This document shows, in pieces, positions 6,673 through 32,000 of a DNA stretch of 32,000 nucleotides. The stretch lies in contig NZ_CP006932.1 of the NCBI RefSeq assembly GCF_000582535.1, positions 540,001 to 572,000 on the forward strand. Reading direction: 5' to 3'. Both the position numbers and the translations under genes were made by a program. This DNA comes from Candidatus Saccharimonadota bacterium. Its GTDB lineage: Bacteria > Bacillota_I > Bacilli_A > Mycoplasmatales > Hepatoplasmataceae. The stretch's first letter is position 1. Each line of letters starts with the position of its first letter. The notes beneath the pieces were generated by a model, which did not search any database, was not told where the DNA came from, and saw only the letters and a program-made list of their open reading frames with translations.

Positions 6673-9492
6673 CTATTTTAAAATATACCTAAGATATTTT
6701 CCTGTTTCAGAAATTTTACTATTTGAAATCTCTTCAGGGGTACCATGAGCAATAACTTTTCCTCCATGATTTCCTCCTTCAGGTCCCATATCTATAATAT
6801 GATCAGCAACTTTAATTACATCTAAATTATGTTCAATTATAAGAATTGAATCACCATTATCGACAATCTTATTTAAAACTACCAATAATTTTTTAATATC
6901 ATGATGATGTAATCCTGTTGTTGGTTCATCTAAAATATATAAAGTTTTCCCTGTTGCTTTTTTTTGTAAATAAGTAGCAAGTTTTACTCTTTGAGCCTCT
7001 CCTCCTGAAAGTAAAGTAGAAGAATGTCCTAGTTTAATATAATCAAGACCAACATCTTTTAAATATTTAAGTTTTCTACTAATTTTTGGTTGATTTTTAA
7101 AAAAGATATTCGCTTCTTCTACTGACATATCTAAAACATCTGCAATATTTTTATCTTTAAAAGTAATTTGTAAAGTTTCTTCGTTATATCTTTTCCCATT
7201 ACATTCATCGCATTTTACATAAACATCGGGAAGAAAATGCATTGGAATTCGTAAAATTCCATCACCTTGACATTTTTCGCATCTTCCACCTTTTACATTA
7301 AATGAAAATCTTCCTGCAGCATAGCCTTTTATTTTTGCTTCATTTGTACTTGCGAAAAGTTCACGAATATCAGAAAAAACACTGGTATAAGTAACAGGAT
7401 TAGAACGAGGAGTTTTACCAATAGGATCTTGTGATATTCTTACAACTTTATCAATATTTTCGACACCTTTAATTGCATCACATAAACCAGGAATATCAAA
7501 ATGATTTCCATGCGAAGTCAGATTATGTAATTTTTTGTAAATTATTTCATTTACAAGAGTTGATTTTCCTGATCCAGATACACCAGAGACAACAACAAAT
7601 TTTTTAAGAGGAATTTTGACATTGATGTTTTTTAAATTATTTGCTTTTGCTCCATATATTTCAAGATATTTTTGCTCAGAAATATTTCTTCGCTTTTTCG
7701 GAATTTCTATTTGATCTTTTCCTGAAAGAAAATTTCCAGTATGTGTTTCTTTTTTTGCGACTTCTTCTGCTGTTCCTGTAGCAATTACTTTTCCCCCATA
7801 AATTCCAGCATCAGGACCAATATCAATTAAATAATCAGATTCAAGCATCATTTCTTCATCATGTTCAACAACAACAACAGTATTACCTAAATCTCTAATT
7901 TCTTTTAAAGTATTAATTAATTTTTCATTATCTCTTTGATGAAGTCCGATTGATGGTTCATCTAATACATAAATAACACCGGTAAGTTTTGAACCTAGTT
8001 GTGATGCTAATCTTATTCTTTGACTTTCTCCTCCCGAAAGAGTATTAGCCATTCGATTTAAAGTAAGATATCCTAATCCAACATTTATTAAAAATTTAAA
8101 TCTTGATTTAATTTCACTAATTACAAGATTTACAATTTTTAATTCTTGTTCACTTAATTTAAGATCTTTAATTCATTTATTTGCTTCTTCAATTGAAAGT
8201 GCAGTAACCTCAAAAATATTTTTATGATTAATTTTTACAGCAAGAGCATGTTGATTTAGTCTTGATCCATTACATTTATCACATGTACTTGTTGCAAAAA
8301 ATTGTTTATAATAGTTTCTTGCAAAATCTGATGCTGTTTCAAGATTTAATCTTTCAATCATTGTAGCAAGTCCCTCAATATAATCATATTTACGAACTGT
8401 AAGAGATTTTGTTTTTACTTTAAAATTAATTGGTTCTTTTGAACCATATAAAATAATCTCTTGTTCTTTTTCTGTAAAGTCTTTTAATTTTTTGTCAAGC
8501 GAAATATTATATTCTTTTAATAAAACAATAAATTTTTCTCAATTATATCCTGATAATTTATCACCAAAATATTTAATTCCTCCCTCTAATATTGTTTTAT
8601 CTTGATCCACCATTTTTTCTCAAGTTACTTGCTGAATAAATCCTAATCCATTACATTTATTACAAGCTCCTAAAGGTGAATTAAAAGAAAATAATTTTGG
8701 TTCAATTTTTGGCATTGAAAAATCACCATGTTTACAACCTAATTTAAGAGAATATAATTCTTCCTTTTTTTCTGTAAGGTTTTCAACACTTACTAAACCA
8801 TCAGCATATTTTGTAGCTAACCCTAAACTTTCATAAATTCTTGATCTATTTTCTGTATTTAAGATAATTCGATCTACTAAGATATCAATTGTATATTTTT
8901 TATGTTTATCTAATTCTTCGATATTATCTAAATGTAAAATTTCATTATTTACTCTTATTCTTAAAAAACCTTCTTTTTTAAGTTCTGAAATTTCATTTTT
9001 AAATGACCCTTTTTTATTAGAAACTAAAGGAGCAAATATTTGCAATTTAGAATTTTCTTTTCAATTATAGATTTGATTAATAATTTGCGTAATTGTCTGT
9101 GATGATATTTCTATATTGTGAATAGGACAATAGGGAATTCCAATTCTTGCAAATAATAATCGATAAAAATCATAAATTTCAGTAATTGTTCCTACAGTAG
9201 ATCTTGGATTATTAGAAGTTGTTTTTTGATCTATTGCAATTGCAGGTGATAACCCTTCAATTGAATCAACAGCAGGTTTTGCTGTTCCTCCTAAGAATTG
9301 TCTTGCATAATTTGAAAGAGAATCAACATATCTTCTTCTTCCTTCATTATATAAAACATCAAAAGCAATAGAAGATTTCCCTGATCCGGAAACACCAGTA
9401 ATTACAATTAGTTTATTCTTTGGTAATTCTAAATCAACATTTTTTAAATTATTTTCTTGTGCATTTTTTATTATTATTTTATCGTTTATCAT
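6673..9492 (-). CDS. uvrA: Excinuclease ABC subunit A
   Basis: Four track fragments (9061-9492, 8620-9045, 8173-8361, 6673-8052) share one frame and are joined through TGA codons (939 aa). It has two ABC ATPase modules ([23 protein letters not shown] signatures) and zinc-finger CxxC pairs. Confidence 0.96.
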
Positions 9493-9574
9493 AGTCTTTT
9501 TTATTATAATTTTATAAATTATAGGTATTTAAATTATATATATTATTTAAATAAAAATAAAAGACAGAAAAATA

Positions 9575-10309
9575 ATGGAATGAGAATGATTAAATAATAA
9601 ATTAAAAAATTATGAAATAGATTTTGAAATAGTTAATAAAAGATTAGAAAATCATAAAAATGAATTTAATTTTTGAAAAATTCAAATTGAAAATTATTAT
9701 AACTTAATGAAAAATAATTATATCAAAAAATATTTTGAAAAAATAGAAGAATTAGAAACATTTATTAATGAAAATCAAATAAATGATTTATCTAAATTAA
9801 ATAATTTTTTAAATTCAAATGGGGGTAAAATTGATGAATTTTATTATGAACACTTAAATTTAATAAAAACTGATTCATTAAAAAATTATTTAAAAAATTT
9901 TATATTTTTCTCTTTTGAAGGAAGTATAAATAATTTAATTATGTTAGAAAAAATAATAGACGATATAGAACAATACAATAAAAATGAAAATCAAAAAAAT
10001 TTAAAAATAATAATGGATTTTTTATTTAAAATTCTATTTAAGGAAATTATTGAAAATTTTGAATTGGCTAAATCAAAATTTGAATATCTATTACAAAATA
10101 ATGTTTTAATAAAAAAATGTAGTAAATTAAAAATCAATAATAATTTAAATTATTGATCAAAATACTTTGATCTTTTCTTTAATGAAAATGCTATTTTTAT
10201 AAGTGAAGCAGAAAAATTTGCAGAAAATCATCAATTTAAATTGATGAAAAGTATTAAAAAATTTAAAATATTTTGATTTTTACCAGAGAATTTTGAAAAA
10301 AATAAATAA
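9575..10309 (+). CDS. Hypothetical Asn/Lys-rich protein (244 aa), possibly the 5-prime part of a disrupted gene
   Basis: ATG at 9575 (MEWEWLNNKL..., both W are TGA). It reads through several TGA codons and the 9707-10156 track ORF to TAA at 10307-10309. No family recognised. Confidence 0.55.
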
Positions 10310-10721
10310 AATTTACTTTTGAAGAAAAATGTTGAAAAAATGATTGATTAGAAAAAAATAATTTCATTTTTGAAAAAATTAAGCAAGAGAGAAATTTTTT
10401 TGTACATAAATACAATTTAGATGATACTCTGCTAATATTATCAATTTTAAATGTAGGAAAAGAAAAATTAAAAGAATTTTCTAATATTTTTTTTCAAAAT
10501 TATAAAATTTCTCTTTTTTTATTTATTTCTTTTTTAAAAAAAATAAACCAATTATTTTTAAATTTAATTGAAAATGAAGTTATAAAAAAGCAAAAAAAAT
10601 AGATTTTAAAAAAGTTGAAGAAATTGATGATTTGAAAGAATATTTTAATTTTATTAAAAAATATAATTATAATGAAATACAAATTATTGATGTTTTTTAC
10701 AGTTTTATTAAAATTAAATAA
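10306..10721 (+). pseudogene. Out-of-frame coding remnants downstream of the 9575-10309 CDS
   Basis: Two protein-like open frames have no start codon. The first runs 10306-10602 and ends ...NLIENEVIKKQKK-TAG. The second is open from 10506; its protein-like part begins near 10602 (DFKKVEEIDDLKEYFNFIKKYNYNEIQIIDVFYSFIKIK) and ends at TAA 10719-10721. One extra A in the A8 tract at 10592-10599 would fuse them. Confidence 0.45.
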
Positions 10722-10795
10722 AAAAAAGGTAAATATAATAATGGATTGTTAAAACATATTATAACGCTTATTGTAATTTATAAATAGTACAAAAA

Positions 10796-10816
10796 AGAGA
10801 GTACGAAGTACTCTCT
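10796..10816. terminator. Bidirectional terminator hairpin
   Basis: AGAGAGTAC-GAA-GTACTCTCT is a perfect 9-bp stem flanked by A6 and T4. It sits between the convergent plus-strand remnant and the minus-strand small membrane gene. Confidence 0.75.
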
Positions 10817-10831
10817 TTTACTTTATTTTTC

Positions 10832-11056
10832 CTATACAAATCAAATTCAATAAATTCCAACTATAATCGCAGGAATTCAAAAGATTACAAAAACTACTGA
10901 AACAATTATTCTAATTGCCATGTTTTTTTTCATTCATTCAAATGATTCTGTTGAGAATCAAACAATGAATAAATTCAACAATCAAACAAATGCCATTATT
11001 GTAGCAACAATCTTTCATCCAGTACCACTTTTTAATTTATTTTTGAAATCGTCCAT
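10832..11056 (-). CDS. Hypothetical small membrane protein (74 aa, 2 predicted TM helices)
   Basis: Invisible to standard-code ORF calling because it contains 7 TGA (Trp) codons. The RBS AAGGGGGACTAACAGT precedes ATG at 11056; the stop is TAG at 10832-10834. Translation: MDDFKNKLKSGTGWKIVATIMAFVWLLNLFIVWFSTESFEWMKKNMAIRIIVSVVFVIFWIPAIIVGIYWIWFV. Confidence 0.6.
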
Positions 11057-11117
11057 ACTGTTAGTCCCCCTTATTTTGCTATTATAACACAGAAAAAATT
11101 AAAAATATATTTTGTAT

Positions 11118-13070
11118 TTAATAATTACTTTTAAGTTCTGTAATAAGATCTCGTAATTTTATAGCTCTTTCAAAATCATATTCTTTTGCTGCTTTTTTCA
11201 TTTCTTTTTCAAGAACAGCAATTTTTTGTTTTGATTTTAATGATGATAATTTTAGTTTTTTATCTAATTCAAATTCTTTAATTAAAGGTTGAGGAATTGT
11301 CTTTTTAATAGTAACAGGAGTAATATGATGTTTCTTATTAAATTCTAATTGAATCGCTCTTCTCCGATTAGTTTCATCAATTGCTCCTTGCATTGAATTG
11401 GTAATTTTTTTTGCATAAAGAATTGCTTTTCCGTTTACATTTCTTGCAACTCTTCCAATCATTTGAATAAGTGATCTTTTATTTCTTAAAAATCCATCCT
11501 TATCAGCATCTAAAATTACAATTAAGGAAACTTCAGGAACATCTAATCCTTCTCTTAAAAGATTAATTCCAACTATTGCATCATAAAAACCAACTCTTAA
11601 TTTCCTAATTACTTCTTCTCGTTCAAATGTTTTTAAATCACTATGTAAATAAGCAACAGAAAATTCTGTTTCAGTAAGATATTTTGCAATATCTTCTGCT
11701 AATTTTTTTGTAATAGTATTTACAAAGACACGTTCATTATTTTTCTTACGTTCTCTTATTTGATTTGCAATATCTTCTAATTGATTTTCAACATTTTTAA
11801 TTTCAATTATAGGATCTAATAAACCGGTCGGTCTTATAATTTGTTCTACATATTGATTTTTTGTTTTCTTAAGTTCATAATCACCAGGAGTAGCAGAAAC
11901 AAAAATTACTTGATTCATTCGATCTTCAAATTCATGGAATCTAAGTGGACGATTATCAAGTGCACTTGGTAATCTAAATCCATATTCTACCAATGATTTT
12001 TTACGAGAATAATCTCCTTCGTACATTCCTCCTATTTGTGGAATTGTAATATGAGACTCATCTACAATAAGTAAATAATCTTTTGGAAAATAAGAAAATA
12101 AAGTAGCTGGTGGTTCATTATGTTTTCTTCAAGGTTCAAAATAAATTGAATAATTTTCAATTCCTGAAGTAATTCCAAATTCTCTTAATTGCTCAAGATC
12201 ATAATTTGTTCGATTTTCAATTCGTTGTTTTTCTAATAAAAGATTTTTTTCTTCAAAATATTTTATTCGCTTCTCAAGATCTTTTTTAATATTTACTATT
12301 GCATTTTTTAAAAGATCAGAGGAAACTACATTTGCATCAGCAGGGGTAATTGTAAAATGATTATATCTTTCTATTATTGTTTTTTTAAGCGAATCAATTG
12401 CTACAATTTCTGTAATTTCATCTCCGAAAAAATCAATTCTTATATTAAATTGATCAGATCAAGCAGGAACTAATTCCACAACATCTCCTCTAAGAATAAA
12501 AGAACCAGGAAAGAGATCTTCTCCTCGTTTGTAACCCAAACTAACAATTTTTGTAAGAAATTCTTTTCTTGTAATTTTATTTCCTAAAGAAATTTCAAAA
12601 TGATGTTTTTTATATTCTGAGGGTTCACGATGACCATAAATAGCAGCAACAGAAGCAACTACAATTACATCATTTTGTGATGTAAGAGCATTTAATGTTG
12701 AATTTCGCATCATTTCAATCTGTCAATTTTGAACAGATCTTTTTTCTACATATAAATCTTTTTTTGGAAGATAAGCTTCTGGCTGATAGAAATCAAAATT
12801 AGAAATATAATATTCTATACGATTGGAAGGAAAAAGTTCCTTAAACTCTACGTAAAGTTGATTTGCAAGCGTTTTATTATGTGCTAGTACAAGCGTAGGT
12901 TTATTAAGATTTTTAATTACGTTTGCAATTGTAAATGTTTTTCCTGTTCCTGTAGCACCTAATAAAATATTATATTTAGTTTTATTTTTGATTGAATCAG
13001 TTAATTTAACAATTGCTTGTCCTTGATCTCCTGCTGGTCTTTTTTCTGTAGTTAATGAAAATTTTTCCAT
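11118..13070 (-). CDS. uvrB: Excinuclease ABC subunit B
   Basis: Fragments 12723-13070, 12459-12713 and 11118-12026 share one frame and are joined through TGA codons (650 aa). It has the Walker A motif GATGTGKT, helicase motifs, and the C-terminal UVR domain ([11 protein letters not shown]). Confidence 0.96.
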
Positions 13071-25084: not shown

Positions 25085-26824
25085 TTATTTTTGAAAAATT
25101 TTTTCCGTCTTATAATTAAATAATTTTAAAAAAAATATATTTTTGTATTTTAATAAAAATTCTAAAACAAATTTATTTTCAACATATATATTTAATCTTT
25201 TTGAAGTTCTTGTTATATTGATATACATTTCTCTTCAATTTTTAATATTTTCCTTTTGAATTTTTTTAAAATCAGAATAATTATTTTCTTTATTTACAAA
25301 AAGGATTCTATTATTATCAATTTCATCATCTTTATAATTTTTGAAAATTTTATTTAACTCATTTGAAAGAAATATATTTGAATCAAAAATAATGTTTACG
25401 CTTTCATACTCTTTCCCAAGATTTAAACGAGTTAAATCAATATTAACTTTATCTTCATTTAATAAATTTGTCTCTTGTAAATATGTAATTAATGTAGAAT
25501 CTGCTTTTTGTTTATATTTATCTAAAAATCCAGGATTATATAAGTAAAAATTTAAATTTTCATAAAAGTAAATTAATTCTTCAAAATCAAATTTAATATT
25601 ATTTTGATCTTTTATAAATGATTTAACATTTATTAATTTCGCTAATTTTTCTTCTGTTATTTTCAATAAATTTCAAAAATGAAGGAATAATTTATTTGTT
25701 CTTATGGAATTTTTTAATTTGCAATCCTTAAAAGAAAGTGAACTTTTTATATTTTCAATTATTTCATCAATATCTTCATTTGAATTATTTCCTAACAATT
25801 GATTTTCACTTAAAAATAAAATAATTTTAATATTTTTATTTTTTTTCATCATTTTTTTCAAATTTTCAAATTGTTTCTTTTCAATTCTTTGAAATTCATC
25901 TATAAAAATAAATTCAATATTATTTATTAAATCATATCTAGGGTTTCATTCATTTAATATTTTTTTAGGATATCCTAAAATATCTTTACCTTGATAAATT
26001 TCTGGTAAATTTTCTTTATTTCAATTTTCATGAAAATCATACAATTTTGAACCCAAAAAAACAATTTTAGATTTTTTAAATTCCTTTTCTTTTGCTAAAT
26101 GATGAAGAATCAAAGATTTTCCTGTTCCGGGATCTCCTTTTATAAGTATTCATTTTTTATTTTCTTTAATTCAATTTTTAATTTTACAAATTGCACATTT
26201 TTGAGATTCATTTAATAAATAATTCCCATTATTAAAATTTTCAAAATCATCAAATAAATTTATTTTTGAATAGATGTAATTATATTTTAATCATTTATTA
26301 TCTTCCGAATTAGATTCTAAATTTAAAATTTCTTTTAAAAATTTATTTTTTTCAATTTTTTTTAAATTACCATCAGATAAAAAATAATAAGAATTTTCAT
26401 TATCATTTTTATTGTATAAAATTCCATAAATAATTAATTTTTTATTTTGCTTATTTGATATTTTTTTTAAATGGTTATTTTTATTAATTAATTGTGATTT
26501 TAATTTTTTTTTTACCTCTTTTTTATTTTCTTTATTAAAATTTTTAATTTCAATATCTAATATTTCATGTTCCCCATATTTAAAAAAATCAAATTCTTGA
26601 TTTAAATAAATATCATTAAAACATAACATTACTTCTTTATAAAAATATTCTTTTTTTTCTTCTAAATCATTAAAAGAATTAATATCTTCTAAAAACTTTT
26701 TAATAGAATCAATTTCTTCTAAATTTATTCCATTGTCACTAAAATATATTTCTTCCATTTTCATTTTTTGATTAAAAATAGATAAATTGTCCCGCTCTAC
26801 TGAATATATTTCTTTTAAATTCAT
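25085..26824 (-). CDS. DUF2075 / SF1-helicase-like P-loop NTPase with an uncharacterised N-terminal domain (579 aa)
   Basis: Translated codon by codon. Fragments 26291-26824, 25862-26290 (untracked), 25673-25861 and 25235-25666 form one frame joined by TGA codons, ending at TAA 25085-25087. Walker A is GDPGTGKS (26114-26137) and the Walker B-like motif is FIFIDEFQR (25886-25912). These are followed by LKNSIRTNKLFLHFW and GKEYESVNIIFD, which match the DUF2075 motif order. The N-terminal part contains LDIEIKN (26540-26560). Confidence 0.6.
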
Positions 26825-27082: not shown

Positions 27083-28072
27083 TTATTTTTGATCTTTTAA
27101 AAGAATTGCTGAATAACAAGCTCCGTATAATCCTGCATCATTTCCTACATTACATAATTCAATTCTTGTTGTTTCTCTTATAAAATCATGGGTAAATCTT
27201 TTATATACTGGTTGCAAATATTCTAATAAAGTATCATTATCATGTGCTAAACCACCACCAAGAATAATTGTTTCTGGATTAAGAATCATTGCAATAGTAG
27301 CAAGAACTCTTCCTCCATATTCAGAAAATTCTTGTGCAGATTTAACTGCTAATGAATCTTTTTTTCGTACAGCATCTCAAATCTTTTTTCCATTTATTTC
27401 TTGACCATCAAGAATTGATTTTACTTGAGGATTATTCTTTTTAATATCATTATAAATATTTATAATACCAGTTGCTGAAAAAAGTGGTTCAGCACATTCA
27501 GGTAATCCACAAGTACATTGAAATCTTGTTTTAAAACCTTGAATTGGAATATGGCCAATTTCACCAGCCGTTCCCCCTGAACCTTGATATAATTTTCCAT
27601 TAATTACAACACCAGCCCCAAGACCAGTTCCTAAAGTAAGGAAAACAAAATTATCAACATCTCGTGCTTTTCCAATAAATTTCTCCCCTAGAGCAGCCAT
27701 ATCACAATCATTATGTACAGCTATTGGTAAATCATTTCATCATTTCTTAAGATCTTTTTTTACATCGTAATTTTTTCATCCAATATTTCCGGAAAACTTA
27801 ACAGTTCCATCAAGTGCAGGAAAACCGGGAATTCCAATTCCCATTGCAATTGCTTTTTTCCCATCATATTTAGGACCTTTTAATTTATCTTTAAATTCTT
27901 TTGTTATTTCTTCTGGAATATATTTTCCTTTATCACTTAAATTAGTTTTTATTTTTCATCGATCAAGCATCAATCCTGATCTAGTAATAATAGCTAATTT
28001 AATAAAAGTCCCACCAATATCAACGGCAAGTAAAAGATCTTTTTTATTATATTTATCTTTTATCTTAATCAT
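27083..28072 (-). CDS. ROK-family sugar kinase (glucokinase-like)
   Basis: ATG at 28072 (MIKIKDKYNKKDLLLAVDIGGTFIK...). Fragments 27377-27700 and 27083-27289 share the frame (329 aa). ROK signatures are present: LGTGLGAGVVINGKLYQGSGGTAGEIGH and the CxCGxxxC zinc motif (CTCGLPEC). Its start overlaps the lacB stop by 8 nt. Confidence 0.85.
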
Positions 28073-28559
28073 GATATTTTCCTTCATCTCAATCTTTTAA
28101 TTCTTTTGCAAAAGAAACTTCTTTATATTCTTTTACAATTGAATCTAGATATTCAACAACTTTACGATCTCCTCTAAATTTAGTTCTAATAAAAATATCA
28201 ATCGCCTCTTCGATTATCCCTAATCCTGTTATTTTGCCACCAAAAGCAATAATATTTGCATCGTATTGTTTACGTGCAAATCTTGCTTGTGTTAAATCCC
28301 TTACAAGAGCAACTCTTGCTCCTTTTACTTTTTGTGCAGAATTTGAAATTCCAACTCCTGTACCACAAATAATTACAGCTATATCAGCTTTTTTATTTAC
28401 AACTAATTCTGCTGCATTTTGTCCAAAAATTGGATAATGCGTTCTTACGAAGTCATATGTTCCAACATCAATTACTTGATGTCCATCTTTTGTTAATTTT
28501 TCTTTTAATTTGTCTTTAATATCAGTTACGATATGATCACAACCTAATGCTATCTTCAT
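28065..28559 (-). CDS. lacB: Galactose-6-phosphate isomerase subunit LacB (RpiB/LacA/LacB family)
   Basis: MKIALGCDHIVTD, VIDVGTYDFVRTHYPIFG and ICGTGVGI are near-identical to the staphylococcal/lactococcal LacB blocks as I recall them. Reading through TGA at 28089 adds W-DEGKYHD, matching the conserved LacB C-terminus WDRGEYHD (164 aa). Confidence 0.85.
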
Positions 28560-28579
28560 AAATTTTCCTTCTATTATCT

Positions 28580-29014
28580 TTACGCTAATTTATTGAGCAT
28601 ATCTATTCTTATCATATGTCTTCCAGCCGCAAATTTTGTTTCTAAAAAGAGTCTCGCAATTTCTTTTGCAAGATAAATACTTGTAATATTCGCCCCTAGT
28701 GCAATCCCCATTGCATTATTATGTTCTCTAGTCATATGTGCTGAATGTTCATCAGCACATTGTGCTACGATCATTTTTTTTACTTTTGCAGAAGCTGCAA
28801 AACCAAGACCACCAGATTCATCAATTGTAATCAATCGGTCTTCTCCATTTTTTTCTACTATTTTTCTGCTTATCTCTGTTACTTTTTTTAAGTAAGCAAG
28901 TTCATCTTCAAATAGAAAGATTTCAACATCTTTTCTTAATCTTTTTTCTAAATAGTTTTTCAGATTATTAGAATAACCTTGAAATCTATCTTTACTTACA
29001 ATAAAAATCTTCAT
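28580..29014 (-). CDS. lacA: Galactose-6-phosphate isomerase subunit LacA-like
   Basis: Intact 144-aa ORF. EHSAHMTREHNNA and the C-terminal GRHMIRIDMLNKLA match LacA (DERSGYMTRGHNN ... GRHQIRVDMLNKM). Confidence 0.8.
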   Translation of the reverse strand: MKIFIVSKDRFQGYSNNLKNYLEKRLRKDVEIFLFEDELAYLKKVTEISRKIVEKNGEDRLITIDESGGLGFAASAKVKKMIVAQCADEHSAHMTREHNNAMGIALGANITSIYLAKEIARLFLETKFAAGRHMIRIDMLNKLA

Positions 29015-29022
29015 AATTTTCC

Positions 29023-30102
29023 TTAATTTGTTGCTTTTGCTTGTTTTACTTGTTTTGCTGATTTTTTGTTCATTGTAAATCAGTAATATAAAGGTAATAA
29101 ATTAGAAATAAATAATAAGATACTTTGAATTGATAATATCAAGTTTCCTGATTCAAAATAAACTACCATTTGTGCAATCATTGCAACTTCAAATGAAATT
29201 CAAGCTCAGTATGTTTTTTTAGTAAGAAGAATTAATCCAACTACTTGGAAAATTCCTACTACCATATCTCAATAAGGAGCAACATCATATACTACACCCG
29301 ATTCGATCGTATAACTATATGTTATTTGTCCAAATTCATTACTTATTTGAGTGTAATTATCAAGTGTTGTATCAGGATTTGTTGCATAACTATAAAATGT
29401 TTTAGTATCTGTAAAAATTACAGGTGTAATTAATAATAAAGAAAAAACAACAAAAACTGCAGCAATTGCAAGACAAATTCCTCATCATTTATAATTCATT
29501 TGTGATAAATATGGATTTAGATCTACTTTTTGATCTTGTTTTTCTCATTCAAAATAACGTCACTGTCCAAGAACAAGTCCAATTATTTGTGAAATAGCAA
29601 TTCATCATGCTCCATAAACAACATCAACAATTAAAAATGAAGTCATAGAAATTTGATTTCATCAAATAAATCTTTTTGAAAATTTAATTAAAAAGATATT
29701 TGCCATAAATTGACAAACAGATGCAATTAATGATAAAAATAGTAAAAATCAGGAAATTATGTAAAATGCATTACTTTTAGAAAATCCATCTTCCGTAACT
29801 ATTCCATATTTTCCATTTATTGTTTTACCAAAAGCGGTTTGATTTGATGAATTATTACCAACACCAAATAAAATTATATTTACAACAGAGATAACTAATA
29901 AAATTCCAATAAATATAATCATTGTATATAAAGTGAAATCTTCTTGTGATCACTGTTTGGGTTTAAGAAATCTTGAAAAATCAATAAAGGAATCACGATG
30001 AGCAGCAGAAGTAATATCTTTTTGATCTGCTTTTTTAACTTCCGTTTTTTCTTTTGATTTTTCCTTATTTTCTTTTGAGGGGGGGGGTGAATTATTACTC
30101 AT
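29023..30102 (-). CDS. PnuC-family (nicotinamide riboside-type) transporter-like membrane protein with an N-terminal extension
   Basis: Absent from the track because it has many TGA codons. ATG at 30102, TAA at 29023-25 (359 aa). Two internal repeats fit the PnuC pattern: ...IFLIKFSKRFIWWNQISMTSFLIVDVVYGAWW...LGQWRYFEW and ...GLILLTKKTYWAWISFEVAMIAQMVVYFESGN...LLPLYYWF. The stop lies 8 nt before the lacA start. Confidence 0.55.
30079..30087 (-). repeat. G9/C9 homopolymer inside codons 6-8 (PPP) of the pnuC-like gene
   Basis: The plus strand reads tgagggggggggtga, so the coding strand is TCA-CCC-CCC-CCC-TCA (MSNNSPPPSKEN...). It is the only long G/C run in the window. Confidence 0.9.
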
Positions 30103-30250
30103 ATTGTATCTTCTTCCTCATTTATATTTATTTTTATTTAAATTTTTTTATAAAAATCCCCTTTTATATAATTCTTTATATTTACCTTTACAAATAAATA
30201 ATAATACTTTCTAAAATTATTGTTTTGTTTTTGTCTTAATTATTTTAAAT

Positions 30251-30262
30251 TTGTCTAGACAA
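30251..30262. promoter_or_regulatory. TTGTCTAGACAA palindrome, a GntR/HutC-type (dre-like) operator candidate
   Basis: Perfect 12-bp palindrome with the core GTCTAGAC, in the divergent pnuC-like/aldolase intergenic region. It lies 90 nt upstream of the aldolase ATG. Confidence 0.4.
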
Positions 30263-30351
30263 GTTAATTTTTAATATCAATTTTTAAGCAAAAAATAGTA
30301 TATTAAAAATAAAAAGATAATAAGATTTTTATTATTTTAAATGGAGAAAAA

Positions 30352-31209
30352 ATGCCACTTGTAAAAGGAAAAATTTTAATAAAAGATGCAATAAAAAGAA
30401 ATTATGCGATTCCTGCTTTTGGAATAGTAAATTTAGAAGGAGCTAAAGCAGCAATAGAAGCTGCAGAAGAATTAAATGCTCCAATCATTTTACAAACAAC
30501 AGAAGGAGGAATAAATTATGCTGGTCATGAAGAATTAGCAGCAATTGCAATTGCGAGTGCAAAAAAAGCAAAAGTTCCTGTTGCTGTTCATTTAGATCAT
30601 GGAAGAAATATTGAATATCATAAAAGATCATTAGAACTTGGATATACTTCCCTTATGATAGATGGTTCTACATTACCATTTGACGAAAATATTAAAATTA
30701 CAAATAAAGTAAAATCATTAATAAAAGATCAAGATATATCATTAGAAGCAGAACTTGGAATGATAGGCGGAAAAGAAGATGATATCGAAGAAGAAGCTGA
30801 TCATTTTACAAAAGTAGAAGATGCTATTAAATTTATTAATAATACCAATATTGATATGCTAGCTATTGCTTGTGGTACTAGTCACGGTTTTTATGTAAAA
30901 GAACCTAAAATAAATATCTCTTTAATTAAAGAGATATATGATAAAACAAAAAAACCACTAGTATTACATGGCGGAACAGGAGTTCCTTTAAATCAAATTA
31001 CTAAAGCTGTACAAGCAGGAATAAGAAAAGCTAATTTTGATAGCGAACTTAAAAAAGCAATTATCTGTGGAATATTAGAATATATGTATAAAAATCCTGA
31101 TGCTTTTGATCTTAGAAAGATCTTCCAAGAAGGAATTAATCAAGCAAAAGAAGTAGCAAAAAGTAAGATAAAAGCTGTACAAGCAGATGGAAAAAATTGA
31201 TTAAGATAA
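30352..31209 (+). CDS. Class II ketose-bisphosphate aldolase paralogue (GatY/KbaY/FbaA-type)
   Basis: A GGAG RBS precedes the ATG. Motifs: AIPAFGIVNLE, HLDHG, GTSHG, LVLHGGTG. The track stop at 31198-31200 is TGA; reading through gives ...GKNWLR-TAA at 31207-31209 (285 aa). Confidence 0.85.
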
Positions 31210-31421
31210 TGGATATATTTTGAAATATATTTTATCAAATTTTAATGTTTATATTCGCTTGTTGAATTATTTGATTTTTCTTTGAATCTAAAAATATTTT
31301 TTTAAAAGCAGGAGGAGTAATAATTTTATTAATTTTATTAGTATTATTTATTATAAGTATTTTAAATACATATTTTAATTTTGATATATTTAATTTAAGT
31401 TTAAATGCAAATTATAAATAA
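31209..31421 (+). CDS. Hypothetical small membrane protein (70 aa, 2 predicted TM helices)
   Basis: Its ATG overlaps the aldolase TAA (TAATG). It has 3 TGA codons. Translation: MDIFWNIFYQILMFIFACWIIWFFFESKNIFLKAGGVIILLILLVLFIISILNTYFNFDIFNLSLNANYK. Confidence 0.5.
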
Positions 31422-31564
31422 ATAATTAAATTAGTAAAATTTTATAATGACAAAAAATAGAAAAATCAAAAATTTTCAAGAAAATAGAACAAAAATAGAA
31501 AAAATATAAATATATAAATTTATTATGAAAAGCAAAATACATACTAATTACTTCTATACTATAA

Positions 31565-32000
31565 TTTGAAGAAAATATTAAAATTACAAATAAAGTAAAA
31601 TCATTAATAAAAGATCAAGATATATCATTAGAAGAATAACTTGGAATGATTGAGGAGAAAGAAAATAATAGAAGAAGAAGTTGATCATTTTGCAAAAGTA
31701 AAAGATGCTATTAATATTTATTAATATTATAAATATTGATATGTTAGTTATTCTTGTGGTAATTATTAACGGTTTTTATGTAAAACAACCAAAAATAAAT
31801 ATCTTTTTAATTAAAGAAATGTATGATAAAACAAAAAACCAATAGTATTATATAGGAGAAAAAGAGTTCCTTTAAATCAAATTAATAAAACTTTAAAAAT
31901 AAGAAGAAGAAAAGCCAATTTTGATAGTGAATTTAAAAAAAATTGCGGAATTTTAGAATATATGTATAAAAATCCTGATGCTTTTGATCTAAGAAAAATC
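31565..32000 (+). pseudogene. Decayed partial duplicate of the aldolase gene's 3-prime half (runs off the window)
   Basis: It aligns to 30679-31122 at an offset of about 886 bp. The first ~66 nt have a single mismatch. Beyond that there are substitutions and small indels, including an in-frame TAA at 31637-31639 (originally GAA) and frameshifts. Confidence 0.85.

What the first reader, a model, noticed from the sequence alone, without database searches (positions are those of the whole stretch)
30079..30102. C9 homopolymer at codons 6-8 of the pnuC-like transporter, a candidate slipped-strand ON/OFF switch
Seen in sequence: the coding strand reads ATG AGT AAT AAT TCA CCC CCC CCC TCA. This nine-base G/C run is the only one of its kind in the 32 kb. 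It sits 15 nt into a membrane-protein gene that heads the pnuC-like/lacA/lacB/ROK operon. A change of one base in the tract would shift the frame at codon 9 and truncate the protein, possibly with polar effects on the tightly coupled downstream genes. Established knowledge: mycoplasmas and other small-genome pathogens use homopolymer length changes in promoters or 5-prime coding regions for high-frequency phase variation. The present length is in frame (ON).
Basis: partly seen in the sequence, partly recalled or inferred. Interest (0 to 1): 0.6.

Follow-up and report, generated by a model that had tools for sequence, protein, structure and literature searches.

The report
Conserved poly-C tract in symbiont transporter gene
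A run of nine C's at the start of a membrane-transporter gene in an isopod gut symbiont (Candidatus Hepatoplasma crinochetorum) is real and looks preserved by selection, which fits a slippage on/off switch, but every public assembly examined has it in the ON frame, so switching has not been shown.

Summary
A C9 run (G9 on the + strand, 30079-30087) fills codons 6-8 of a 359-aa gene (29023-30102, minus strand; code 4). It is the only G/C run longer than 5 in the 32 kb. The window is Ca. Hepatoplasma crinochetorum, Av lineage, 24% GC.

Evidence for a switch:
- Ca. H. scabrum keeps the same C9 in a different codon register, although synonymous C sites between the two species are almost fully replaced (1 of 14 retained).
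- A second tract, G8, sits mid-gene in H. vulgare and two Ps-like strains.
- All five G/C runs of 8 or more in about 117 kb of Hepatoplasma DNA lie in this one gene.

Evidence against:
- No length variant exists in any of about 12 tract-bearing assemblies, including a frame-unbiased sample.
- Predicted OFF products are absent from a 15-billion-protein collection.
- Two sublineages carry tracts broken by point substitutions (C7TC; GTGGTGGGGG).

Verdict: this is a credible but unproven contingency locus, held ON in every sampled population. It would be a new member of a known kind. Read-level data would decide it.

The parts
30079..30087 (-). C9 homopolymer (G9 on the + strand), codons 6-8 (CCC CCC CCC = PPP) of the PnuC-like gene; candidate slipped-strand site
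   Evidence: Same C9 in L001, L005, L006, L007, L013 and in H. scabrum L008/L017. C7TC in L002-L004.
29023..30102 (-). PnuC-like membrane protein gene, 359 aa under code 4. About 8 predicted helices arranged 1+3+1+3. The first ~34 residues are K/E-rich, disordered and poorly conserved.
30110..30119 (-). Purine-rich Shine-Dalgarno-like stretch GAGGAAGAAG, 7-16 nt upstream of the ATG
   Evidence: Read from the sequence
30157..30193 (-). Conserved upstream block: TTGTAA, 17 nt, TATATAAAAGGGGAT. Inferred promoter and transcript start. The consensus scan did not call it.
   Evidence: Alignment and sequences. Not found by the scan.
28580..29014 (-). LacA-like RpiB/LacA/LacB-family sugar-phosphate isomerase subunit; starts 8 nt after the PnuC-like stop and has its own AAGGA site
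28065..28559 (-). LacB-like sugar-phosphate isomerase subunit
27083..28072 (-). ROK-family sugar kinase (329 aa from the ATG at 28072, which overlaps the lacB-like stop)
30352..31209 (+). Divergently transcribed class II ketose-bisphosphate aldolase

Best explanation
The C9 run is a hypermutable slipped-strand site kept in the gene by selection, that is, a contingency (phase-variation) tract.

How it would work: during replication, gain or loss of one C shifts the frame at codon 9. The PnuC-like permease is then lost, because no alternative start can rescue the conserved region from residue ~35 onward. A later slip restores it. Each population would then carry a minority of transporter-negative cells, and ON cells predominate wherever the symbiont has been sampled so far.

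Other Hepatoplasma lineages carry the equivalent switch as a G8 in the middle of the same gene, and some sublineages have locked the gene ON through a point substitution in the tract.

Shown: the tract exists, it is extremely rare for this composition, it is conserved at the nucleotide level, a second tract exists, and a +/-1 change has the stated consequences in silico.

Inferred: hypermutability, reversibility, any fitness benefit of the OFF state, and the absence of mismatch repair in this genome.
For: 1. Rarity. This is the only G/C run above 5 in 32 kb. The expectation is 0.01 or less per window.

2. Concentration in one gene. In about 117 kb of Hepatoplasma DNA held here, all five G/C runs of 8 or more lie in orthologues of this ~1.07-kb gene:
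- C9 in the window
- C9 in H. scabrum (L017)
- G8 in H. vulgare (L016)
- G8 in L019
- G8 in L022
The only other run of 6 or more is a G7 in a surface-anchored protein. Leaving out the ascertained window, 3 of 3 runs of 8 or more fall in a gene covering 10% of the sequence (p about 1e-3 if the three are counted separately, about 0.1 if counted as one event).

3. Nucleotide-level conservation.
- Av against scabrum: fourfold sites in the five genes of the locus are 53% identical, and only 1 of 14 sites with C in Av is C in scabrum. Yet all nine C's are kept.
- The codon register differs (CCC CCC CCC against TCC CCC CCC CTA), so different tract positions are the synonymous ones in each species.
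- Ps-like against vulgare: only 2 of 32 fourfold G sites are retained, yet GTG GGG GGG GTY is identical in both.

4. Protein-level constraint is weak at both sites. The N-terminal ~34 residues are absent or unalignable in other orthologues and in the paralogue. The mid-gene site reads VGGV, VVGV, VGAV, VLAV or VIGI in different lineages.

5. The two tracts lie on opposite strands in sense (C run and G run in the mRNA) and at different positions. That fits a strand-symmetric DNA property better than an RNA motif. The leader RNA has no unusual fold (z = 0.24).

6. Consequence of a slip. A +/-1 change truncates the protein at 12 or 68 aa, with no in-frame start before codon 61.

7. Precedents.
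- 5' coding homopolymers switch M. fermentans p78 (an ABC-transporter operon) and M. hominis vaa at 1e-3 to 1e-4 (PMC2831843).
- Poly-G/C tracts are the switches of AT-rich C. jejuni (PMC13317227).
- MutHLS homologues were reported missing in mycoplasmas (PMC4007778).
Against: No length variation was seen anywhere.
- Five Av-lineage haplotypes from 8 samples differ by up to 25 substitutions in 1650 bp. They have no indel at all, and the tract segment is always 9 nt.
- The LacA-anchored look-up, which does not depend on the frame, gave a 359-aa gene in 7 of 7 contigs.
- The predicted OFF products (the 299-aa protein from M61, and the 68-aa and 73-aa frameshift peptides) are not among about 15 billion proteins.
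- No truncated cluster appeared in the homology search.
- No contig breaks at the tract.
- C9 is the same length in two species and G8 the same in three sources, whereas classical contingency loci differ in length between strains.

Interrupted alleles exist: C7TC in ERZ27262795 and ERR1051325, and G2TG5 in strain Ps.

Limits of the data:
- Whether this genome lacks mismatch repair was not tested.
- Assemblies show only the majority allele.
- The enrichment statistic rests on loci centred on this gene, not on whole genomes.
Confidence: 0.5

Rival explanations
1. The tract is stably ON and never acts as a switch. Its C/G purity is kept for a translational reason: a cluster of rare codons (CCC, GGG, TCC) or a Pro-Pro(-Pro) stalling motif that slows early elongation or membrane insertion of the permease.
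For: - CCC (8.9% of Pro) and GGG (6.7% of Gly) are rare codons.
- Every allele keeps at least Pro-Pro (PPP, PPL, SPPL) at the 5' site.
- The length is invariant and always in frame.
Against: - CCG and GGC are rarer still but are never used, so what is kept is homopolymer purity rather than rarity.
- Many orthologues and the paralogue lack the N-terminal segment and the Gly-Gly entirely, so no general need for a pause is evident.
- The codon register differs between Av and scabrum while the nine C's stay.
Confidence: 0.2
2. The tract is a mutational accident with no function. It is slippage-prone and mildly harmful, tolerated by drift in a small symbiont population, and OFF mutants are simply purged.
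For: - All consensus alleles are ON.
- Interrupting substitutions have arisen and persisted in two sublineages, as expected if purity were not needed.
- The N-terminal segment is dispensable and rich in indels.
Against: - A useless C9 should decay quickly under the AT bias. Only 1 of 14 fourfold C sites and 2 of 32 fourfold G sites survive between the species compared, yet both tracts stay pure.
- Synonymous C-to-T changes would give the preferred codon CCT (47.5% of Pro), but none is seen.
- Two separate long tracts in the same gene, with none in the other ~108 kb, is unlikely by accident.
Confidence: 0.2
3. The run acts at the RNA level. RNA polymerase slips on the C9/G8 template and produces a fixed fraction of out-of-frame transcripts, which tunes expression down without any heritable change.
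For: - Transcriptional slippage on long homopolymers is documented in AT-rich endosymbionts (as summarised in PMC2831843).
- An invariant DNA length is compatible with this reading.
Against: - The documented cases are A/T runs.
- Nothing here measures RNA.
- It is unclear why expression would be tuned this way at two different positions in different lineages.
Confidence: 0.07
4. Homopolymer sequencing or assembly artefact.
For: None found.
Against: The same C9 appears in at least six independent data sets, including Illumina-only assemblies (PMC3942034; PMC10928387).
Confidence: 0.01

Closest known systems
Mycoplasma fermentans p78 (poly-A tract in the 5' coding region of a gene in an ABC-transporter operon) and M. 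hominis vaa (A8/A7)
   Same: - The organism is a mollicute.
- A mononucleotide run lies near the 5' end of a coding sequence.
- A +/-1 frameshift abolishes a membrane or transport component of an operon (PMC2831843).
   Different: - Those tracts are poly-A of 7-8 nt, and switching has been measured (1e-3 to 1e-4 for vaa).
- Here the run is poly-C, far rarer at this base composition.
- The host is an arthropod gut symbiont rather than a vertebrate pathogen.
- No variant has been observed.
Campylobacter jejuni poly-G/C contingency genes
   Same: - The genome is AT-rich and long G/C runs are few.
- Tracts of 8-9 nt and more sit inside reading frames.
- Experimental 'locking' by interrupting the run (GGG GGG GGG to GGA GGC GGG; PMC13317227) mirrors the natural C7TC and G2TG5 alleles seen here.
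   Different: - C. jejuni tracts differ in length between strains and within cultures, and there are 15-30 of them per genome.
- Here the length is constant in all assemblies, and the genome-wide number is unknown.
Listeria monocytogenes inlA 5' A7 tract and its interrupted A2GA4 allele
   Same: A 5' homopolymer allows gene inactivation, and some lineages carry an interrupted, stabilised version (PMC2831843).
   Different: - The inlA tract is poly-A, and truncated alleles are actually found in nature.
- No OFF allele has been found here.
PnuC family of vitamin/nucleoside facilitators (Pfam PF04973)
   Same: - A profile of the Hepatoplasma family reaches proteins that pass the PF04973 cut-off.
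- The direct match spans nearly the whole model (positions 3-173 of 175).
- The predicted helices are arranged 1+3+1+3.
- A kinase gene sits in the same operon. From general knowledge of PnuC/NadR, that would suit uptake by phosphorylation trapping.
   Different: - The direct score is below the cut-off (19.2 against 27.3 bits).
- There are long extra loops with beta strands (residues ~95-110 and 233-267).
- The gene neighbours are sugar-phosphate isomerase, ROK kinase and aldolase genes rather than NAD or thiamine genes, so the substrate is probably different and remains unknown.

Membership tests
SSR-mediated phase-variable (contingency) locus | A long mononucleotide run inside or just upstream of a reading frame, far above the compositional expectation | tested here: met
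   C9 at codons 6-8. Expectation is 0.01 or less per 32 kb. It is the only G/C run above 5 in the window.
SSR-mediated phase-variable (contingency) locus | A +/-1 change in the run abolishes the product, with no rescue by another start | tested here: met
   In silico, the products are 12 aa (+1) and 68 aa (-1). The first in-frame ATG, GTG or TTG is codon 61, inside the first helix.
SSR-mediated phase-variable (contingency) locus | Tract length differs between strains or isolates (ON and OFF alleles in nature) | tested here: not met
   All 8 Av-lineage samples, H. scabrum and three G8 alleles are in frame with constant length. OFF products are absent from the protein collection. Only substitutions were seen.
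SSR-mediated phase-variable (contingency) locus | Length heterogeneity within a population, and reversible switching of phenotype | not testable with these tools
   Raw reads and cultures are not available; assemblies give only the majority allele.
SSR-mediated phase-variable (contingency) locus | Repeat purity maintained by selection (conserved at synonymous sites; repeats recur in the same gene) | tested here: met
   Only 1 of 14 fourfold C sites and 2 of 32 fourfold G sites are retained between species, yet both tracts are pure. There are two tract sites in one gene.
SSR-mediated phase-variable (contingency) locus | Weak or absent mismatch repair in the organism | not tested
   Only general literature on mycoplasmas was consulted (PMC4007778). 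The Hepatoplasma genome could not be scanned as a whole.
PnuC / NMN_transporter family (PF04973) | Match to the family model at or above the curated cut-off | tested here: not met
   19.2 bits against 27.3. Five of 11 family members give sub-threshold hits.
PnuC / NMN_transporter family (PF04973) | Homology by transitive profile search | tested here: met
   The family profile finds P0019-P0023 (E from 1e-14 to 5e-4), and all five pass the PF04973 cut-off (27.6-78.9 bits).
PnuC / NMN_transporter family (PF04973) | PnuC/SWEET-like fold (3+1+3 helices with an extra N-terminal helix) | tested here: inconclusive
   The AlphaFold model has mean pLDDT 60.7. Its helix order 1+3+1+3 is compatible, but Foldseek against the PDB gave no match, and the PDB sequence profile search gave nothing.
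LacA/LacB galactose-6-phosphate isomerase | Match to the equivalog models at the curated cut-off | tested here: not met
   LacA-like scores 109 against 164, and LacB-like 204 against 234. Both pass Pfam PF02502, and the LacB-like protein passes the RpiB/LacA/LacB subfamily model (117 against 88.3). They are family members, but the substrate is not established.

The most novel reading that the evidence does not exclude
Hepatoplasma species have kept, over the time in which synonymous sites became saturated, exactly one long G/C slippage tract in this PnuC-like permease gene. The tract sits either at codons 5-8 or at codon ~205. This would give a beneficial gut symbiont of isopods a heritable on/off lottery for a surface-exposed transporter. 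In a wall-less cell such a protein could also be a phage receptor, and the gene lies next to a strain-variable block of defence genes. Some strains would since have locked the gene ON by point mutation.
Probability: 0.3. Interest if true: 0.6.

Novelty: new member of a known kind. Interest (0 to 1): 0.42.

Why it matters
Phase variation through homopolymer slippage is known mainly from vertebrate pathogens, where it is read as immune evasion. A conserved switch on a nutrient permease in an extracellular, probably beneficial, arthropod gut symbiont would widen its use to a different setting, such as bet-hedging over nutrient uptake, phage exposure or transmission outside the host.

It would also give a simple, testable marker (C8/C9/C10 ratios) for population dynamics of an uncultured symbiont.

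The comparative signature used here needs no read data and could be applied to other AT-rich genomes. It has two parts: purity of the tract at synonymous sites that are otherwise saturated, and recurrence of tracts in one gene.

If reads show no heterogeneity, the finding becomes an oddly conserved rare-codon run of modest interest.

Tried and rejected
I went through homologues instead.
- Two scans of JGI metagenome contigs found nothing: a DNA pattern allowing 4-16 nt in place of the tract and a protein-profile scan.
- The mRNA-structure idea (the 5' GGGG or the ribosome-binding site pairing with the C run) was rejected. The leader folds no better than shuffles (z = 0.24), and lineages without the C run keep the GGGG.
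- The consensus promoter scan did not call the conserved upstream block, and no terminator-like sites were found.
- The structure route to the PnuC fold failed: the model was low-confidence and the Foldseek matches meaningless. The PDB sequence profile search was empty.
- Three Hepatoplasma papers were searched for homopolymer, phase variation, PnuC, repair and indel, and none mentions them.
- Recent horizontal transfer as the reason Av and scabrum share C9 was rejected, because the flanks differ by several substitutions and by indels that are not multiples of 3.
- Assembly artefact was rejected by replication across assemblies.

Full report
**What is there**

The window has 24% G+C and its genes are intact only when TGA is read as Trp. 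The closest proteins name Candidatus Hepatoplasma crinochetorum, the mollicute of isopod midgut glands. The gene product is identical to AHK22637.1/BDV03218.1.

On the minus strand, gene 29023-30102 (359 aa) begins ATG AGT AAT AAT TCA CCC CCC CCC TCA. The C9 run (30079-30087) is the only G or C run longer than 5 in 32 kb. Dinucleotide-preserving shuffles give 0.01 such runs per window. CCC makes up 8.9% of Pro codons.

**The gene and its neighbours**

- The direct Pfam match to the PnuC model is below threshold (19.2 against 27.3 bits), although it spans the whole model.
- A profile of the family finds only seven representatives among 1.84 billion proteins. The five distant ones all pass the PnuC cut-off. 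The protein is therefore a very divergent, lineage-restricted PnuC relative of unknown substrate.
- The structure model was too poor for a fold search.
- Downstream lie a LacA-like and a LacB-like sugar-phosphate isomerase subunit and a ROK kinase. The gaps are 8 nt and 20 nt, then an 8-nt overlap, and each gene has its own AAGGA site.
- A class II aldolase gene is transcribed divergently.

C10 gives a 12-aa product and C8 a 68-aa product. The conserved part of the protein starts near residue 35, and there is no in-frame ATG, GTG or TTG before codon 61, which is inside the first helix. A +/-1 change should therefore be a null allele.

**Variation between strains**

I collected the locus from independent assemblies. 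Some came through the protein itself. Others came through the exact LacA protein next door, a route that does not depend on the frame of the tract.

Over 1650 bp there are five Av-lineage haplotypes, differing by up to 25 substitutions and no indel:

| Haplotype (samples) | Tract |
|---|---|
| window = SRR3458570 = SRR4046665 | C9 |
| SRR17180998 | C9 |
| AP027132 | C9 |
| SRR35255167 | C9 |
| ERZ27262795 / ERR1051325 | CCCCCCCTC (P8L) |

- The interrupted allele has the same length as C9. It lies only 5 differences from the nearest C9 haplotype, so it is derived.
- All 7 LacA-anchored contigs that reach the tract carry a 359-aa gene.
- The products expected from OFF alleles are absent from about 15 billion proteins.
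- The homology search shows no truncated cluster.

At the level of assembly consensus, then, there is no length variation.

**Variation between species**

Average nucleotide identity is 98.4% between Av and Tokyo2021, 81.3% between Av and H. scabrum, and 76.7% between Av and H. vulgare (PMC10928387).

- H. scabrum has the same nine C's but reads them as TCC CCC CCC CTA. One extra T lies before the run and a compensating indel that is not a multiple of 3 lies after it.
- Strain Ps, two Ps-like strains, L020, L021 and H. vulgare lack the 5' run. In the Ps lineage the segment is deleted and the start codon has moved.
- H. vulgare and the two Ps-like strains (3% apart) carry a G8 at one homologous mid-gene site, GTG GGG GGG GTY. 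In strain Ps this site is interrupted to GTG GTG GGG GTC.
- No lineage has both tracts.

**Is the run itself conserved?**

- Av against scabrum: at fourfold sites of conserved residues in the five genes of the locus, the two are 53% identical, and only 1 of 14 sites with C in Av is C in scabrum.
- Ps-like against vulgare: 54% identical, and only 2 of 32 G sites are retained.
- Each tract contains three fourfold sites in each lineage, and because of the different register they are different sites in Av and scabrum. All remain C (or G).
- The amino acids are not conserved at either site.
- A synonymous C-to-T change would give the preferred codon CCT, yet none is seen.

This points to constraint on the homopolymer as DNA. 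An RNA motif is unlikely because one tract is C and the other G in the mRNA, they sit at different positions, and the leader has no unusual fold.

**Interpretation**

The most economical reading is a contingency tract, selected for mutability, with ON cells dominant in every sampled host.

Precedents:
- M. fermentans p78 and M. hominis vaa (PMC2831843).
- The poly-G/C genes of AT-rich C. jejuni, where interrupting the run locks the phase (PMC13317227).
- The N-terminal bias of such repeats (PMC3315296).

The natural C7TC and G2TG5 alleles look like locked-ON versions.

Against this reading stands the complete lack of length variants, which is the defining feature of the class. It was tested at consensus level and not met. 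Whether this genome lacks mismatch repair is only presumed from other mollicutes (PMC4007778). The enrichment figures also come from loci centred on the gene rather than from whole genomes.

I put 0.5 on the switch. The rest is shared between a translational (rare-codon or Pro-Pro) role, a functionless liability, transcript slippage and artefact.

**Novelty**

None of the Hepatoplasma genome papers mentions homopolymers, phase variation or this gene. If real, it is a new member of a known kind of system in an unusual host setting. Read pile-ups would settle the question.

Noticed in passing
L016:3576-3583 (H. vulgare), L019:8091-8098, L022:1218-1225; interrupted in L015 near 3580: A second long G/C tract (G8, GTG GGG GGG GTY, inside predicted helix 5) at one homologous mid-gene site in orthologues that lack the 5' C9. 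In each of these loci (7-18.5 kb) it is the only G/C run of 6 or more.
   Followed up: yes
window 31210-32000: A degraded copy of the neighbouring class II aldolase gene with multiple frameshifts; recognisable pieces appear in all three frames. AP027132 has similar fragments (L005:138-868).
   Followed up: partly
L002:884-1796, L003:268-1180; L001:1-1187; L019:1394-4106; L021:110-1444 and 8640-12107: The space upstream of the PnuC-like gene varies between strains and holds defence-type genes. The C7TC strains have a ThsB/TIR-like gene plus an 8xMP membrane protein starting ~200 nt upstream of the ATG. Other lineages carry GmrSD, a KAP NTPase plus DNA methylase, or Cas9/Cas1/Cas2.
   Followed up: partly
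window 30157-30193 (minus strand): A block TTGTAA-17 nt-TATATAAAAGGGGAT is conserved upstream of the gene in Av and scabrum. Its core, TATATAAAAGGGGAT, is also present in the Ps, Ps-like and L020 lineages. It is probably the promoter and transcript start. The consensus scan did not call it.
   Followed up: partly
L018:1170-1176 (H. crinochetorum Ps): The only other G/C run of 6 or more seen outside the PnuC-like gene is a G7. It lies inside a ~730-aa protein with an N-terminal signal-like segment and a C-terminal membrane anchor, so a likely surface protein.
   Followed up: partly
window 27083-31209: The gene set is a PnuC-like facilitator, a ROK kinase, LacA/LacB-like isomerase subunits and a class II ketose-bisphosphate aldolase. 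It would suit uptake of a sugar by facilitated diffusion and kinase trapping followed by a tagatose-like pathway. No 6-phosphate kinase gene was seen in the cluster, and the substrate is unknown.
   Followed up: no
L017:917-1900 and L018:3016-3990: A paralogue of the PnuC-like gene (about 46% identity, lacking the N-terminal extension and both tracts) lies ~1 kb upstream of the orthologue in H. scabrum. A related paralogue lies ~17 kb from the orthologue on the same contig in strain Ps.
   Followed up: partly
window 25085-26824 (minus strand): A 579-aa protein with a P-loop (GDPGTGKS) lies just downstream of the operon and was not matched to any family here. The corresponding position differs between lineages.
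   Followed up: no
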